Shown here: positions 5,788 to 9,423 of the stretch, one piece after another
Numbering within the stretch: the stretch's first letter is position 1
Layout: each line of letters starts with the position of its first letter
Sequence record: MH494197.1
Length of the DNA stretch: 64,000 nucleotides
Reading direction: 5' to 3' (one strand)
Origin: Escherichia phage CMSTMSU
Notes under the pieces: generated by a model
Database searches by the model: none
What the model was told of the DNA's origin: nothing
Seen by the model: the letters and a program-made list of their open reading frames with translations, nothing else
Program-made: the position numbers and the translations under genes

Positions 5788-6028
5788 AGAAATACAAGAA
5801 GTACTGAAGGAATTTGAGTTGAATAAGTCAGATATTAAAACTGCATTAATGGAGTGTTCTGTTTATATGGAAAGTGTTGATTACGGAACACTACTTAATA
5901 TGCCACTAATTGATAGAGACTTATTAGTTAAGTCTTTTAATAAGAAAATTAAAAACAAAACGAGAAGCACTAACTCACAAGGAGCCAGCACATTGTTGCT
6001 GGTTTTTGGTTTTAAACTACAGAATTGA
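5765..6028 (+). CDS. Small hypothetical protein
   Basis: ORF 5741..6028 in track; start choice uncertain, overlaps end of preceding gene. Confidence 0.3.
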   Translation: MLLHSSPEEIQEVLKEFELNKSDIKTALMECSVYMESVDYGTLLNMPLIDRDLLVKSFNKKIKNKTRSTNSQGASTLLLVFGFKLQN

Positions 6029-6217
6029 TTGAATTGAATTATGAAAGGAATTAATTATTTTATAGTGAACTCATCTAACTCATTTCATTCGTTAGCTGAA
6101 GAATATTCGTTACTACGTAACTCATATTCATTTCTTATAATTAATTATAAAGAACTTTAAAAGATTTAATACTTGACGGGATTTGTTGAAGACATTTTCA
6201 TCCCCACAGGGAATGAA

Positions 6218-6245
6218 GACAATAAAAAGAGACAATTAAGTCTCT
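6218..6245 (-). terminator. Rho-independent terminator, minus-strand orientation
   Basis: Minus-strand hairpin AAGAGAC-TTAATT-GTCTCTT followed by TTTATTG. Confidence 0.45.
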
Positions 6246-6682
6246 TAATTCTTGACGCTGATGGTTTCAGCATTTATTGTATTGCGAATTTCTTAAAATT
6301 CATTAAGAACGAAAGCGGGTTGCTCTGTTTCTCTCTATCGCAGTCATGTGCAACGGTCGTCAGTCTTAATCATCCTGACACTCACCTGAAAGTCTATACA
6401 ATCAAACTTCAGGCTGTTTATTAAATCACTTAATAAACTCCCTTAGCAAATCTGGTAAGGTGCGATCCTTATACATCTATCGAGGAACTCTCTGTATGCT
6501 TATCGGAGTTCTTTATTGAGCCGTGTCGCCGTGAGGGGTTCAAACTATGCCCACATCTAACGGGTTTCTTCTGCTCATCGCACTGTTGAACTGCTCATCT
6601 GCCATCTACATTTTCGATAGGATCAGGTTCTAATTTATATGCATTTCTGCATTCAACAGGATTGTCATCACTACAATTAACA

Positions 6683-6716
6683 TTATAGCACCAAATTCAA
6701 AAGTGTCTCACTATTA
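6683..6716 (-). promoter_or_regulatory. Candidate promoter with extended -10 (TGcTATAAT) on minus strand
   Basis: Minus-strand TTTGGTGCTATAAT; same 13-mer recurs at 11363..11376 upstream of the gp55-like gene. Confidence 0.35.
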
Positions 6717-6802
6717 TGATAAAAATTTATAAAAAGTACATAATTCTTGAACATTGAAGTAACGCATAAATATTTTGATAAGAATTAGTTTAGTGGGGAT
6801 TT

Positions 6803-7263
6803 ATGAAGAAAAGATTAAAAGATAGTAAAGAAGCTGCAAACTATCGAAATGAATTACTAAAGAAGCAAAAGGAATTGATCCTATAATTAAGGAACCAATA
6901 ACTAAGCCAGTACTTGATCACTATCACTTCGAGAATCAACACTGTCGTGAAGTTCTCCAGAACGAAGTGAACGCATGGGAAGGTAAAGTACAGAACAGCT
7001 TTAATCGCTATATGAAGCACTTAACCGATAAACCCTTATACGAGGTACTACGAAATCTTGCGGATTATCTGGAGCGTAATAACAGCATTCCTGAAGATGA
7101 GCAAGTTATACATCACACTGCACTAACAATCGATACGAATAAGTTTAAAAGGCTCCCAGCCGGACAACAGAATGCAATACTGGAAGAGTTAGGTGTTATC
7201 CACGTGCAAACAATGCTGCTCGTGTTAAGCAAGCCAGAAAGCTTATCAAGGAAGGTAAATTAA
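6803..7263 (+). CDS. Endonuclease VII-like (HNH-type) protein, atypical: zinc-ligand cysteines not evident
   Basis: VLDHYHFENQHCREVLQNEVNAWEG resembles Endo VII core HLDHDH...RGLLCNLCNAAEG from memory; N-terminus MKKRLKDSKEAANYRNELLKKQK joins ORF 6967..7263 after one frame break. Confidence 0.4.
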
Positions 7264-7277
7264 ATATGGTAGATATA

Positions 7278-7305
7278 AAAAGGGAGCTAAGGCTCCTTTC
7301 CTTTA
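7278..7305. terminator. Bidirectional rho-independent terminator between convergent genes
   Basis: AAAGGGAGC-TAA-GGCTCCTTTCC hairpin with flanking A/T runs. Confidence 0.6.
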
Positions 7306-7306
7306 A

Positions 7307-9423
7307 TTAGAATACATCATCAAGAGTTGTATACTCAACAGTACTGAAACCATCCTCTTTAACTACTTTTAGGATTTTCTCAGTCTTAGAAAGCAATTCT
7401 TCTCTGTGAGAAATGGCATATACATTCTTACCACGCACAGCAGCCATATCTTGGAAGATAGACCACACGCGAAGAACACCACTTGAATCAAGACCTTGGT
7501 CAATCATCTCATCAATGATAAGAATATTGATACTTTGATACAATGACTCATATGTATCACGGAAAGCACAAGATAAAGCAATGTTTACCCTTGTACGCTC
7601 ACCACGACTAAGCTGTTTATAGTCAAAGTACTGACCACTTTTCTCAATTTCTACACTCAAATCATTCAAGAACACAACATTATGTTCAGAACCACACATA
7701 TCAATGTAATATTGAAGACGTGTATTCAGATACGAAATGTTTTGTTCAATAATACGCTTACGGACATAAGAATCCTTGTTTAACAACAATTTAACCAAGA
7801 AATCTTGGTGATTTGCCATCTTATCAAGGTTATTATAGTCACTATAGTCGATTGGTACTAATGAATCGGTCGTAAGTGTATTAATTTGTCCAATAAATGT
7901 GTTAGTAGTTTTCAATTCACGATCTAATTGCTGTGATAATGAAGTTACTGTCATTTCTAACTCTTTTACTTCAGATTTATTCAATGTATCTGGTACTTCT
8001 TGAAGAACATGTGCGTTCAGTTCTTCATATGATGACATAAGTTCATTAGCATAGATGTTAATTTGCTCTTCTTCACTCTTTTAATAAGTTCTTGAAGCTT
8101 ATGCTCATGCATTTGTGCTTCAGTTAGTGTAGAATAGAATGTCACAGGCTTAGGTGGCATATCAAAAATCTCAATACTATCAATTTCCTGAAGTATTGTT
8201 TCAATTTCAGAAGTGGAACTATCAATTTTCGATTGAAGTTCATTAATAGTATTTTGAATTTTATCTTTAATAGACGAAGTATGTTCATTATGTTCTAATT
8301 CGGACATACAAAGTGGACATTTACTACTCTCCACTGTTGCTAATTTGTCCACCTCAGCACGTAACGAACTCTCATGACCATTTAAAGCCACCTTTAATGC
8401 GTTAAGTTTTGTTCTTTGAAACGTTTTTGGTTATTATTCTCTTTTAGAATACCCTCCAACTGTTTCCATATCTCCAACTCATTGTGATTTTCTAATTCAG
8501 TACTGATATCAATAGTTTTTAGCTTATCAATACTTACATTTAATGCTAATTTTGCTGTTGCTAGTTCACGGTCATATGCATCATACTTCAAAGCTAACTC
8601 TTGCACACGTCTTTCTATTTGATCACGAGCAGCATTATGAATAAGAGCTTTCTCTTTCACTTCTGCCAAATCATAGAGATCGTTGAAGTCTAAAGTTTTG
8701 TAGATATTCAATTCTTCAGTCAACTTAGATACTCTATTATTTTTATCAATCTCAAATTGGTTAGCTTGTTCTTGTAATGATTCAATACTTTTTGAATACG
8801 TTCATTACTTGCAGCCACAGTTTCAATTTTGAACTTTTCTTGTTCAGCTAAACGTTTAGAATCTTTATACATATCCTTTAATAGTTCAGCTTTCTCTGTT
8901 AATTGTGTGATGCCCAGAAGTTCCTCAATCATATCACGTTGTTTCTGTGATGATAATGCAAGAAACGGCTCTACGTTAGCATTAAGTACTACAATATGTT
9001 CAAATAGTAGTTGAGAAATCCCAAGAATCTCGTTTAGATCTTCTTGTGTATCTTTCTTCTCCCCTCTTGACTCATCTTCGACCTTATTATCTTTACCTAA
9101 TGTAATAAAGTTGAAATACGTGGACTTCTCCCACGCTCGACGAGATATTGTACACCATCTTTCTCGAACTCAACAGATACTTCACAGTTTTAGCATTAGT
9201 TTTATTAACTAAGTTTGGAATTTTGATATCGTTACCAATACTTTTCCAAACAAACCAAAACTAAACCTTGAATGATGGCACTTTTACCAACACCATTACG
9301 GCGACCGGAACTATCACCACCTTCAATAACTGCATCATTGTTTTGACCAAGAACTAACGATATATCAGCACCAGACAAATCAATTACTTGTGGTGCATTG
9401 CCAAATGAAAAGAAGTTCCTCAT
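7307..9423 (-). CDS. Recombination nuclease ATPase subunit, SbcC/Rad50-like (T4 gp46-like), frame-broken
   Basis: N-terminal Walker A GRRNGVGKS (ORF 9232..9447); coiled-coil middle (8017..8932 fragments); C-terminal ABC signature LSRGERTRV, Walker B LIIDE, H-loop (ORF 7307..8038). Confidence 0.85.

What the first reader, a model, noticed from the sequence alone, without database searches (positions are those of the whole stretch)
6803..7263. Endonuclease VII-like protein lacking the expected zinc-ligand cysteines
The core DHYHF...HCREVLQNEVNAWEG aligns with the Endo VII pattern HLDHDH...RGLLCNLCNAAEG as I recall it, but the cysteine positions are replaced by Gln/Glu/Val. This could be a divergent junction-resolving or HNH-type enzyme.
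Basis: partly seen in the sequence, partly recalled or inferred. Interest (0 to 1): 0.4.

Follow-up and report, generated by a model that had tools for sequence, protein, structure and literature searches.

The report
Zinc-less endonuclease VII of jumbo phage
This is the already-annotated endonuclease VII (DNA-branch-cutting) gene of a 121Q/Rak2-like jumbo coliphage. It keeps every catalytic residue of the phage T4 enzyme but has lost all four zinc-binding cysteines, as does a large group of phage relatives, and its apparent frameshifts are sequencing errors.

Summary
Window 6803-7290 (+) encodes a 163-aa homologue of T4 endonuclease VII. The window is an Asteriusvirus (121Q/Rak2-like jumbo phage) sequence with systematic one-base deletions in homopolymers and at CCWGG sites. 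Three such deletions break this gene, and clean relatives have an intact ORF annotated "endonuclease VII".

Correcting the frame does not restore the cysteines. T4 C23/C26/C58/C61 align with D26/I29/Q53/V56. All 120 close relatives lack the Cys4 site, as do most of 149 more distant cluster representatives and the rV5-like phage 4MG. The catalytic residues D39, H40, H42, R49, N57 and E60 (T4 D40, H41, H43, R54, N62, E65) are invariant in the close family.

Homology holds despite a sub-threshold Pfam score: hhalign 98.5%, and a pLDDT 93.7 model whose only significant PDB matches are T4 endo VII, over its full length.

Best reading: a zinc-independent, probably late-expressed branch and junction resolvase that clears branched DNA before packaging. 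It is a variant of a known kind and of modest interest.

Noticed in passing, and possibly more interesting: the ORF-free stretch just upstream (about 6150-6690, minus strand) looks like a roughly 500-nt structured RNA. It has strong covariation, four copies per genome, and no Rfam match.

The parts
6803..7290 (+). Endonuclease VII-like gene: 163 aa once three artefactual deletions are repaired. ATG at 6803-6805, stop TAA at 7288-7290.
   Evidence: Identical or near-identical intact ORFs are annotated 'endonuclease VII' in vB_Ec-M-J and 121Q.
6867..6867 (+). Artefactual 1-nt deletion (A5 read as A4). It creates the first apparent frameshift.
7200..7205 (+). Artefactual deletion and miscall at a CCTGG (Dcm) site (CCCTGG read as CCACG). 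It creates the second apparent frameshift and the false stop at 7263.
7277..7277 (+). Artefactual 2-nt deletion (A7 read as A5) near the 3' end of the gene.
6877..6888 (+). Codons D26-P27-I28-I29, which occupy the place of the first zinc-ligand pair of T4 endo VII (C23-L-I-C26).
   Evidence: hhalign alignment. D26 is invariant in 120/120 relatives; position 29 is I, T, L or V.
6913..6984 (+). Catalytic beta-beta-alpha-metal core: L38-D39-H40-Y41-H42 ... C48-R49 ... N57 ... E60-G61, equivalent to T4 D40, H41, H43, R54, N62, E65 and G66.
   Evidence: These residues are invariant in 120/120 relatives.
6958..6969 (+). Codons Q53-N54-E55-V56, which occupy the place of the second zinc-ligand pair of T4 endo VII (C58-N-L-C61).
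   Evidence: Position 53 is never Cys in 120 relatives; position 56 is Cys in 19 of 120.
6766..6772 (+). ATAAATA, a T4-type late-promoter-like motif about 30 nt upstream of the start codon. The corresponding site in 121Q reads TATAAATA.
   Evidence: The late-promoter consensus ATAAATA for Rak2-like phages is given in PMC5259590. That it functions here is inferred.
6793..6799 (+). Shine-Dalgarno-like GTGGGGA ahead of the ATG.
   Evidence: Read directly from the sequence.
7280..7299 (.). G+C-rich hairpin flanked by A and T runs, lying between the convergent endo VII gene (+) and the gp46/SbcC-like gene (-). It looks like a bidirectional intrinsic terminator, and the stop codon sits in its loop.
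   Evidence: It is conserved in vB_Ec-M-J, 121Q and GAP32.

Best explanation
The locus encodes a functional, zinc-independent member of the T4 endonuclease VII lineage (the 'DHHRN' beta-beta-alpha-metal nucleases).

Proposed mechanism, by homology with T4 gp49:
- D39 and N57 hold the catalytic Mg2+.
- H40 acts as general base.
- H42, R49 and E60 complete the active site.
- The long helices and the C-terminal helical domain build a dimer that binds four-way junctions and other branched or mismatched DNA and nicks two strands.

The structural Cys4 zinc site that staples the N-terminal hairpin to the start of the catalytic helix in T4 has been replaced. An invariant Asp-Pro turn (D26-P27-I28-I/T29) takes the place of the first CxxC. 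A polar residue at the start of the catalytic helix (Q, D, E, S or H at position 53) plus a hydrophobic residue (V56) take the place of the second.

The gene sits next to the gp46/gp47 (SbcCD-like) recombination nuclease genes and carries a late-promoter-like ATAAATA. It probably acts late in infection to debranch replicated and recombined DNA before headful packaging of the roughly 350-kb genome.

Shown here: homology, fold, conservation of the catalytic residues, absence of the zinc ligands, and the artefactual nature of the frameshifts. Inferred: activity, dimerisation, late timing, and how the fold is stabilised without zinc.
For: Homology and fold:
- PHROG 423 'endonuclease VII', E 2.7e-34, over residues 1-148.
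- Family profile against the PDB hits only T4 endo VII (1e7d, 1en7, 1e7l, 2qnc, 2qnf), E 4e-7, aligning residues 31-130 with T4 32-135.
- hhalign of 120 jumbo-phage relatives against 31 canonical gp49 sequences: 98.5% probability, E 3.4e-15, 135 columns.
- The AlphaFold2 model has pLDDT 93.7. Its only significant PDB matches are T4 endo VII, at full length, TM 0.64.
- Its best matches among predicted viral structures are all Endo VII-type phage proteins.

Conservation:
- D39, H40, H42, R49, N57, E60 and G61 are invariant in 120/120 relatives.
- D39, H40, H42, R49, N57 and G61 are kept in 145-147 of 149 distant cluster representatives.
- These include the D, H, H, R and N residues that Fang et al. 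2018 (PMC6083498) found conserved and named DHHRN.

Zinc ligands:
- 0 of 120 relatives carry more than one Cys at the four positions.
- Among the 149 distant representatives, 84 have none, 54 have one, and only 4 have all four.
- Canonical T4-like sequences are all CCCC where the region is aligned.

Context:
- The position next to gp46/gp47 is conserved in vB_Ec-M-J, 121Q, GAP32 and CBB.
- It is the only Endo VII-like gene in a related 350-kb genome, TH47.
- Published surveys list the T4 endo VII-like enzyme as the junction resolvase of this jumbo-phage subgroup, in a pattern complementary to RuvC (PMC7824862; PMC5259590).
- A late-promoter-like ATAAATA lies upstream.
Against: - No biochemical data exist for any zinc-less member.
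- Pfam Endonuclease_7 scores 16.4 bits, below its 23.6-bit cut-off, and the Pfam dimerisation-domain model PF09124 does not match.
- In T4, the C23S and C61S mutants are inactive and do not bind DNA (PMC6083498 citing Giraud-Panis 1995). Loss of all four ligands would be expected to be harmful unless something compensates.
- I could not inspect model coordinates, so the proposed turn and helix-cap replacement is an inference from sequence alone.
- E60 is replaced by Leu, Ile, Val or Met in about half of the more distant representatives, so that residue is not universally required.
Confidence: 0.75

Rival explanations
1. The protein still binds a structural metal, but through a non-canonical ligand set: some combination of D26, C48, H42, H104 and H105, all invariant or nearly so in the close family. 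On this reading it is a re-wired zinc site rather than a zinc-free fold.
For: D26 is present in 120/120 relatives, C48 in 119/120, H104 in 120/120 and H105 in 119/120. Asp and His are legitimate zinc ligands. In distant relatives position 26 alternates between D (79) and C (59), and position 53 is often His (39 of 149).
Against: In the wider zinc-less group, position 48 is V or I in 91 of 149 representatives and position 105 is Pro in 93 of 149, so no alternative four-ligand set is conserved. Sixty-five of the 149 representatives have neither Cys nor His at any of the four canonical positions. I had no coordinates to test whether these residues lie close together.
Confidence: 0.12
2. The enzyme is catalytically active but is not a junction resolvase. 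It could be a sequence-specific or nicking endonuclease, such as a homing enzyme like F-CphI, that re-uses the Endo VII catalytic motif.
For: The Endo VII catalytic motif is used by homing and restriction enzymes such as F-CphI and Hpy99I (PMC6083498). Homing-endonuclease-like ORFs are common in these genomes; TH47 has a T5orf172/MUG113-type ORF inserted right after this gene.
Against: The similarity to T4 endo VII covers the full length, including the helical C-terminal half, rather than only the catalytic core. The gene is single-copy, has a fixed position next to gp46/gp47 across genera, and is 57-99% conserved across 120 clusters. That pattern fits a core gene, not a mobile one.
Confidence: 0.08
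3. The frameshifts are real and the gene in this particular phage is a decaying pseudogene.
For: Read literally, the window sequence gives three ORF fragments.
Against: All 118 gaps against the closest relative over 28 kb are deletions in the window, at homopolymers or CCWGG sites, and they hit every gene alike. Between the indels the sequence is about 99% identical to intact genes.
Confidence: 0.02
4. The protein is a non-catalytic DNA-binding relative that has lost nuclease activity along with the zinc site.
For: Mutating the zinc ligands inactivates the T4 enzyme.
Against: Every catalytic residue is invariant in 120 close relatives, and D39, H40, H42, R49 and N57 are kept in almost all of 149 distant clusters. 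That conservation would be unexpected in a dead enzyme.
Confidence: 0.03

Closest known systems
Bacteriophage T4 endonuclease VII (gp49; PDB 1EN7, 1E7D, 1E7L, 2QNC, 2QNF; Pfam PF02945 + PF09124)
   Same: The length is similar (163 vs 157 aa) and the order of secondary-structure elements is the same. The predicted fold matches over the full length (TM 0.64). The catalytic residues D, H, H, R, N and E and the NxxEG helix start are shared, as are the FNR, LxNLxxYL and IH motifs of the helical part. The presumed role is also shared: debranching DNA for recombination and packaging.
   Different: All four zinc ligands are replaced: C23 by D26, C26 by I29, C58 by Q53 and C61 by V56. Four residues are deleted before the LDH motif, which removes T4's invariant H38. 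Overall identity is about 20-30%. Both Pfam models fall below threshold or do not match. In this genome the gene lies beside gp46/gp47.
rV5-like (Vequintavirinae) 'EndoVII packaging and recombination endonuclease', e.g. Escherichia phage 4MG gp123
   Same: About 48% identity over residues 5-95. It shows the same cysteine-less pattern (GLDPVL ... CRGVLSQCVN) with the DH-H, R and N residues intact.
   Different: The C-terminal half has diverged and the phage lineage is different (genomes of about 140 kb). I found no experimental characterisation of it either.
'DHHRN' Endo VII-motif nucleases (F-CphI, Hpy99I and SP6-like phage endonuclease VII such as Proteus phage PM93 gp22)
   Same: They share the catalytic D-H-x-H ... 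R ... N signature on a beta-beta-alpha-metal scaffold.
   Different: As described, those enzymes keep the CX2-4C and CX2C zinc ligands (PM93 gp22 has CPLC ... CRGC). F-CphI and Hpy99I are sequence-specific rather than structure-specific.
Classical HNH nucleases (Pfam PF01844)
   Same: They belong to the same His-Me finger superfamily. PHROG 36860 'HNH endonuclease' matches weakly (E 3.7e-4).
   Different: No Pfam HNH family matches at E up to 1. According to PMC6083498, T4 Endo VII and F-CphI lack the central Asn of the HNH motif. I did not check that position in this protein.

Membership tests
T4 endonuclease VII family (Pfam PF02945 Endonuclease_7) | Score at or above the Pfam gathering threshold for PF02945 | tested here: not met
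   16.4 bits against a cut-off of 23.6, E 0.0086, aligned over residues 12-91. The T4 control sequence scores 77.9 bits.
T4 endonuclease VII family | Significant profile-level homology to canonical gp49 sequences | tested here: met
   hhalign 98.5% probability, E 3.4e-15, 135 columns. hmmsearch of the family profile against the PDB finds only T4 endo VII, E 4e-7. PHROG 423, E 2.7e-34.
T4 endonuclease VII family | Catalytic residues D40, H41, H43, R54 and N62 (plus E65) | tested here: met
   D39, H40, H42, R49, N57 and E60 are invariant in 120/120 relatives.
T4 endonuclease VII family | Structural Cys4 zinc site (C23, C26, C58, C61; the CX2-4C ... CX2C pattern) | tested here: not met
   The aligned residues are D26, I29, Q53 and V56. 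None of the 120 relatives has more than one Cys at these positions. Canonical T4-like sequences are all CCCC where the region is aligned.
T4 endonuclease VII family | The overall endo VII fold, over the full length | tested here: met
   The AlphaFold2 model has pLDDT 93.7. Foldseek against the PDB returns only 1e7l, 1en7 and 2qnf as significant hits: E 5.7e-7, TM 0.64, 157 aligned columns.
T4 endonuclease VII family | C-terminal dimerisation domain (Pfam PF09124) | tested here: inconclusive
   PF09124 does not match. However, the hhalign and Foldseek alignments run through this region, T4 residues 104-157.
T4 endonuclease VII family | Domain-swapped homodimer | not testable with these tools
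   Only monomer structure prediction was available.
T4 endonuclease VII family | Mg2+-dependent, structure-specific cleavage of four-way junctions, branches and mismatches | not testable with these tools
   This needs a biochemical assay.
Classical HNH nucleases (Pfam PF01844) | Match to an HNH profile | tested here: not met
   No HNH family was reported at E up to 1 in Pfam. The only HNH-type hit is weak: PHROG 36860, E 3.7e-4.

The most novel reading that the evidence does not exclude
The Rak2-like and rV5-like phage enzymes, together with hundreds of metagenomic clusters, form a large clade of Endo VII-fold resolvases that fold and work without the structural zinc that the T4 enzyme needs. 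On this reading the Cys4 site has been replaced by an Asp-Pro turn and a polar residue at the start of the catalytic helix. That would be a natural experiment in removing a structural zinc site from a His-Me finger nuclease, and no member has been studied biochemically or structurally.
Probability: 0.6. Interest if true: 0.35.

Novelty: new variant of a known kind. Interest (0 to 1): 0.3.

Why it matters
T4 endonuclease VII is the textbook phage junction resolvase, and its Cys4 zinc site is treated as part of the family signature. In T4, the C23S and C61S mutants are inactive.

This work shows that a large, conserved group of phage orthologues keeps the catalytic machinery and the whole fold but has none of the zinc ligands. 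The group includes the only recognisable resolvase of the roughly 350-kb Rak2/121Q-like phages, and the rV5-like phages.

Three things follow:
- Annotation pipelines that rely on Pfam PF02945 will miss or under-score these genes.
- The variant offers a test case for how a structural metal site can be replaced.
- It could be a simpler, metal-independent scaffold for junction-cleaving enzymes.

It does not change the picture of how these phages resolve DNA branches.

Separately, the window's indel pattern is a warning. Every apparent frameshift or pseudogene in this window should be treated as a sequencing artefact.

Tried and rejected
For the endo VII gene:
- Single-sequence phmmer against the PDB found nothing. 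A family profile was needed to reach T4 endo VII.
- Pfam gave only a sub-threshold Endonuclease_7 hit and a spurious GAAD hit.
- I looked for a second, canonical Endo VII in a related complete genome (TH47, 350 of 352 kb). tblastn with T4 gp49 found nothing. The jumbo-phage protein found only itself plus an E 0.29 match inside a 287-aa ORF that has no Pfam domain. I rejected that match as noise.
- A cluster-member look-up for ten distant representatives returned no names.
- Literature searches found the gene listed as a T4 endo VII homologue. None of the passages I read in those papers mentions the missing cysteines. The ZRANB3 HNH paper, which I checked as a possible precedent, describes a domain that keeps its Cys4 zinc site.
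- I could not obtain model coordinates, so I did not test which residues pack where the zinc would sit.

For the upstream RNA-like element:
- No tRNA or tmRNA gene was found.
- No Rfam family matched on the noisy window sequence or on clean copies.
- No ORF is conserved. The best candidate mini-ORF carries an in-frame TAG in the Yersinia phage copy.
- Passing resemblances to a hammerhead core (CUGACGA) and to group II intron domain V (GAGCCGUAU) do not fit those structures and have no Rfam support, so I dropped them.
- Two literature searches for a described ncRNA in Rak2-like phages found nothing relevant.

Full report
**What the window is.** Megablast of window 6000-8500 finds 99.2% identity to Escherichia phages EC.P1, WPEC3, vB_Ec-M-J and fEgEco12, and about 89% to 121Q, PBECO4 and G17. 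These are jumbo myoviruses of the genus Asteriusvirus, the 'Rak2-like' group, with genomes of about 350 kb.

In vB_Ec-M-J and 121Q the matching stretch holds the following genes in order:
- baseplate hub
- a small hypothetical gene
- an ORF-free gap of about 840 bp
- a 163-aa gene annotated 'endonuclease VII' (EcMJ_328; 121Q gp594)
- on the other strand, the SbcC-like (gp46), SbcD-like (gp47) and late sigma factor (gp55-like) genes

**The frameshifts are artefacts.** In the window the gene reads as three ORF fragments. Alignment with the two reference phages shows three deletions:
- a missing A in an A5 run at 6867
- CCCTGG read as CCACG at about 7200
- two missing A in an A7 run at 7277

Over window 1-28414 there are 118 gaps against EC.P1. 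Every one is a deletion in the window, and almost all lie in homopolymers of 5 or more bases or at CCWGG sites, the Dcm methylation motif. From general knowledge, this is the error profile of unpolished nanopore assemblies. It also explains why the neighbouring gp46-like gene appears in pieces. The real gene spans 6803-7290.

The repaired protein is MKKRLKDSKEAANYRNELLKKQKGIDPIIKEPITKPVLDHYHFENQHCREVLQNEVNAWEGKVQNSFNRYMKHL.... It contains one cysteine, C48.

| Comparison | Result |
|---|---|
| Pfam Endonuclease_7 | 16.4 bits (cut-off 23.6) |
| Pfam T4 dimerisation domain PF09124 | no match |
| Single-sequence search of the PDB | nothing |
| BLASTP against T4 gp49 | 30% over 70 residues, E 7e-5 |
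| PHROG 423 'endonuclease VII' | E 2.7e-34 |
| Profile of 36 relatives against the PDB | only T4 endo VII, E 4e-7, residues 31-130 with T4 32-135 |
| hhalign, 120 relatives vs 31 canonical T4-like gp49 | 98.5% probability, E 3.4e-15, 135 columns (residues 16-154 vs 13-157) |

My recalled T4 sequence is 99% identical to database protein P0121, which carries both Pfam domains.

**Structure.** An AlphaFold2 model built on the 120-sequence alignment has mean pLDDT 93.7. In a Foldseek search of the PDB, the only significant matches are the three T4 endo VII entries: 1e7l (E 5.7e-7, TM 0.64, 157 aligned columns), 1en7 and 2qnf. Against predicted viral structures the top matches are all phage Endo VII-type proteins, from rV5-like, Pseudoalteromonas H101, Campylobacter IBB35 and Xylella Prado phages. 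The homology therefore covers the whole protein and not only the catalytic motif.

**Which residues are kept and which are lost.** The alignments give these equivalences.

| T4 gp49 | This protein | Role in T4 | Conservation in 120 close relatives |
|---|---|---|---|
| D40 | D39 | binds catalytic metal | invariant |
| H41 | H40 | general base | invariant |
| H43 | H42 | catalytically important | invariant |
| R54 | R49 | in the active site | invariant |
| N62 | N57 | binds catalytic metal | invariant |
| E65 | E60 | active-site residue (role from my own recollection) | invariant |
| G66 | G61 | start of catalytic helix | invariant |
| C23 | D26 | zinc ligand | D in 120/120 |
| C26 | I29 | zinc ligand | I, T, L or V |
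| C58 | Q53 | zinc ligand | Q 91, D 18, E 7; never Cys |
| C61 | V56 | zinc ligand | V 94, C 19, I 4 |

The first five conserved residues are the ones Fang et al. (PMC6083498) found conserved across 313 Endo VII-motif proteins and named DHHRN. The same paper reports a conserved CX2-4C ... CX2C pattern. It also recalls that T4 C23S and C61S are inactive and fail to bind DNA, whereas C26S and C58S are tolerated singly but not together. No close relative has more than one Cys at the four sites.

**How wide the zinc-less group is.**
- An exhaustive profile search of 1.84 billion cluster representatives found 590 clusters at E up to 1e-3 and 193 at E up to 1e-10.
- Among the best 149 representatives, 84 have no Cys at the four positions, 54 have one, 4 have two, 3 have three and 4 have all four. 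D39, H40, H42, R49, N57 and G61 are kept in 145-147 of them.
- All canonical T4-like sequences are CCCC where the region is aligned.
- tblastn against 50,697 phage records finds 365 records. These include the rV5-like Vequintavirinae at 48% identity over residues 5-95.
- Phage 4MG gp123, annotated 'EndoVII packaging and recombination endonuclease', is equally cysteine-less. An SP6-like enzyme, Proteus phage PM93 gp22, keeps CPLC ... CRGC.

The cysteine loss is thus an old, clade-wide trait with the catalytic residues under continued purifying selection. It is not decay in one genome.

**How it probably works.** By homology with T4 (roles as summarised in PMC5481773, and PMC6083498), D39 and N57 bind the catalytic Mg2+, H40 activates the attacking water, and H42 and R49 complete the site.

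How the fold holds together without zinc is my inference from sequence alone:
- The invariant D26-P27 followed by I/T29 sits exactly where the first CxxC 'knuckle' is. It could form an Asp-capped turn that imitates the knuckle.
- Position 53 lies where the catalytic helix starts in the model (helix 54-70). It is filled with residues common at helix starts (Q, D, E, S or H).
- V56 would pack into the core.

I could not inspect coordinates. A re-wired metal site using D26, C48, H104 and H105 therefore remains possible. However, those residues are not conserved in the wider zinc-less group: position 48 is V or I in 91 of 149 representatives and position 105 is Pro in 93 of 149.

**Biological role.**
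- The gene keeps its place beside gp46/gp47 in Asteriusvirus and in Mimasvirus phages GAP32 and CBB.
- In the related complete genome TH47 it is the only Endo VII-like gene, and T4 gp49 finds nothing else.
- Published comparative work lists the T4 endo VII-like enzyme as the junction resolvase of this jumbo-phage subgroup, in a distribution nearly complementary to RuvC (PMC7824862). CBB_248 is listed as the T4 gp49 homologue (PMC5259590).
- ATAAATA lies about 30 nt upstream of the start codon (6766-6772). 121Q has TATAAATA at the same place. ATAAATA is the late-promoter consensus proposed for Rak2-like phages.
- A G+C-rich hairpin flanked by A and T runs at 7280-7299 closes both this gene and the convergent gp46 gene.

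Late expression and debranching of DNA before packaging, as in T4, is the most economical reading. None of it has been tested experimentally.

**Novelty and score.** The gene and its family assignment are already in public annotation and in the literature. The clade-wide absence of the zinc site is not discussed in any passage I read in the papers I searched. No zinc-less member has a solved structure. I file this as a new variant of a known kind, with modest interest of 0.3.

**Noticed in passing: a candidate structured RNA just upstream.** The ORF-free gap upstream of the gene is better conserved than the genes around it. Between vB_Ec-M-J and 121Q it is 94-97% identical per 100 nt, against 70-90% for the flanking genes.

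Distribution:
- blastn finds a core of about 500 nt at 68-75% identity in Mimasvirus (GAP32, CBB, XbC2), in Eneladusvirus (Yersinia fHe-Yen9-04) and the Erwinia pEa_SNUABM phages, and partly in Klebsiella RaK2, with 4-5 places per genome.
- In GAP32 and CBB the best copy is again upstream of endo VII. In Yen9-04 and XbC2 the best copy lies elsewhere in the genome.
- A scan of IMG/VR with an invariant 18-mer brought in 16 more loci. nhmmer delimited the copies.
- In TH47 there are four full-length copies, all on the same strand, at about 49.6, 146.3, 262.2 (next to endo VII) and 345.8 kb.

Evidence for structure, from an alignment of 13 distinct copies that are 57-96% identical:
- RNAalifold predicts 82 pairs in 14 helices, and 36 of the pairs show compensatory double changes.
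- 96.8% of pair cells are paired, against 84.6% in column shuffles (0 of 500 shuffles reach the observed value) and 35-50% when partners are slid.
- The covariation score is 0.368, against 0.05-0.08 in the slid controls.

Evidence for the strand:
- G-U cells outnumber A-C cells 124 to 15 on the window's minus strand. This count is biased, because the structure was predicted on that strand.
- An unbiased refold of both strands favours the minus strand only mildly, -170 against -159 kcal/mol.
- On the minus strand an extended -10 promoter (TGnTATAAT) precedes the element in most of the aligned copies and in three of the four TH47 copies. A hairpin plus U-run follows it at window 6246-6220.

No ORF is conserved, no tRNA is found, and no Rfam 15 family matches. 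Two literature searches found no description of it. Its function is unknown. This candidate multi-copy RNA of about 450-500 nt in Rak2-like jumbo phages deserves its own follow-up.

Noticed in passing
window ~6150-6690, minus strand (promoter-like TGcTATAAT at 6690-6682; hairpin plus T-run at 6246-6220); equivalents at L001 3150-3700, L004 1500-2082, L005 1500-2080, L006 1510-2076, L007 1495-2060: The ORF-free gap upstream of the endo VII gene holds an element of about 500 nt that is conserved across genera of Rak2-like jumbo phages and present in four same-strand copies in the TH47 genome. Across 13 diverse copies, RNAalifold predicts 82 pairs, 36 with compensatory changes. 96.8% of cells are paired against 84.6% in shuffles (0/500) and 35-50% in slid controls. 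There is no conserved ORF, no tRNA, no Rfam 15 match and no description in the literature searched. It is a candidate new multi-copy structured ncRNA of unknown function.
   Followed up: partly
whole window (measured on 1-28414): There are 118 gaps against the closest phage, EC.P1. All are deletions in the window, at homopolymers of 5 or more bases or at CCWGG (Dcm) sites. This is the signature of an unpolished nanopore-type assembly, so every apparent frameshift or pseudogene in this window is suspect.
   Followed up: yes
window 7307-~9430, minus strand: The gp46/SbcC-like recombination nuclease gene (a single ORF of about 2.1 kb in reference phages) appears as at least four ORF fragments in the window. 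The homopolymer deletions at 8079, 8407, 8789, 9122, 9188, 9246 and 9257 account for this.
   Followed up: partly
TH47 (MT446416.1) 263092-264114, i.e. L029; absent from the window: In the related phage TH47, a 340-aa ORF with MUG113/T5orf172 (GIY-YIG-like homing endonuclease) similarity is inserted between the endo VII gene and gp46. This explains why TH47 matched the query in two pieces.
   Followed up: partly
TH47 144715-145509, 146553-147197, 344323-344964 and 346903-347514 (L026, L030): ORFs with weak, below-threshold HNH similarity, and a pair of paralogous ORFs of about 213 aa, lie within 1-2 kb of two of the other copies of the RNA-like element. Whether this association means anything was not tested.
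   Followed up: no
window ~7150-7260 (C-terminal ~45 residues of the endo VII-like protein): In the PDB fold search, SAP-domain structures (PIAS1, the rice SUMO E3 ligase SAP domain, SAF-A/Acinus-type) appear among the weak, non-significant hits, aligning over 39-51 columns of the model. The output does not say which part of the protein they cover. The C-terminal sequence LPAGQQNAILEELGVIPGANNAARVKQARKLIKEGKL has the look of a SAP-like helix-loop-helix, so that is my guess for the matching region.
   Followed up: no
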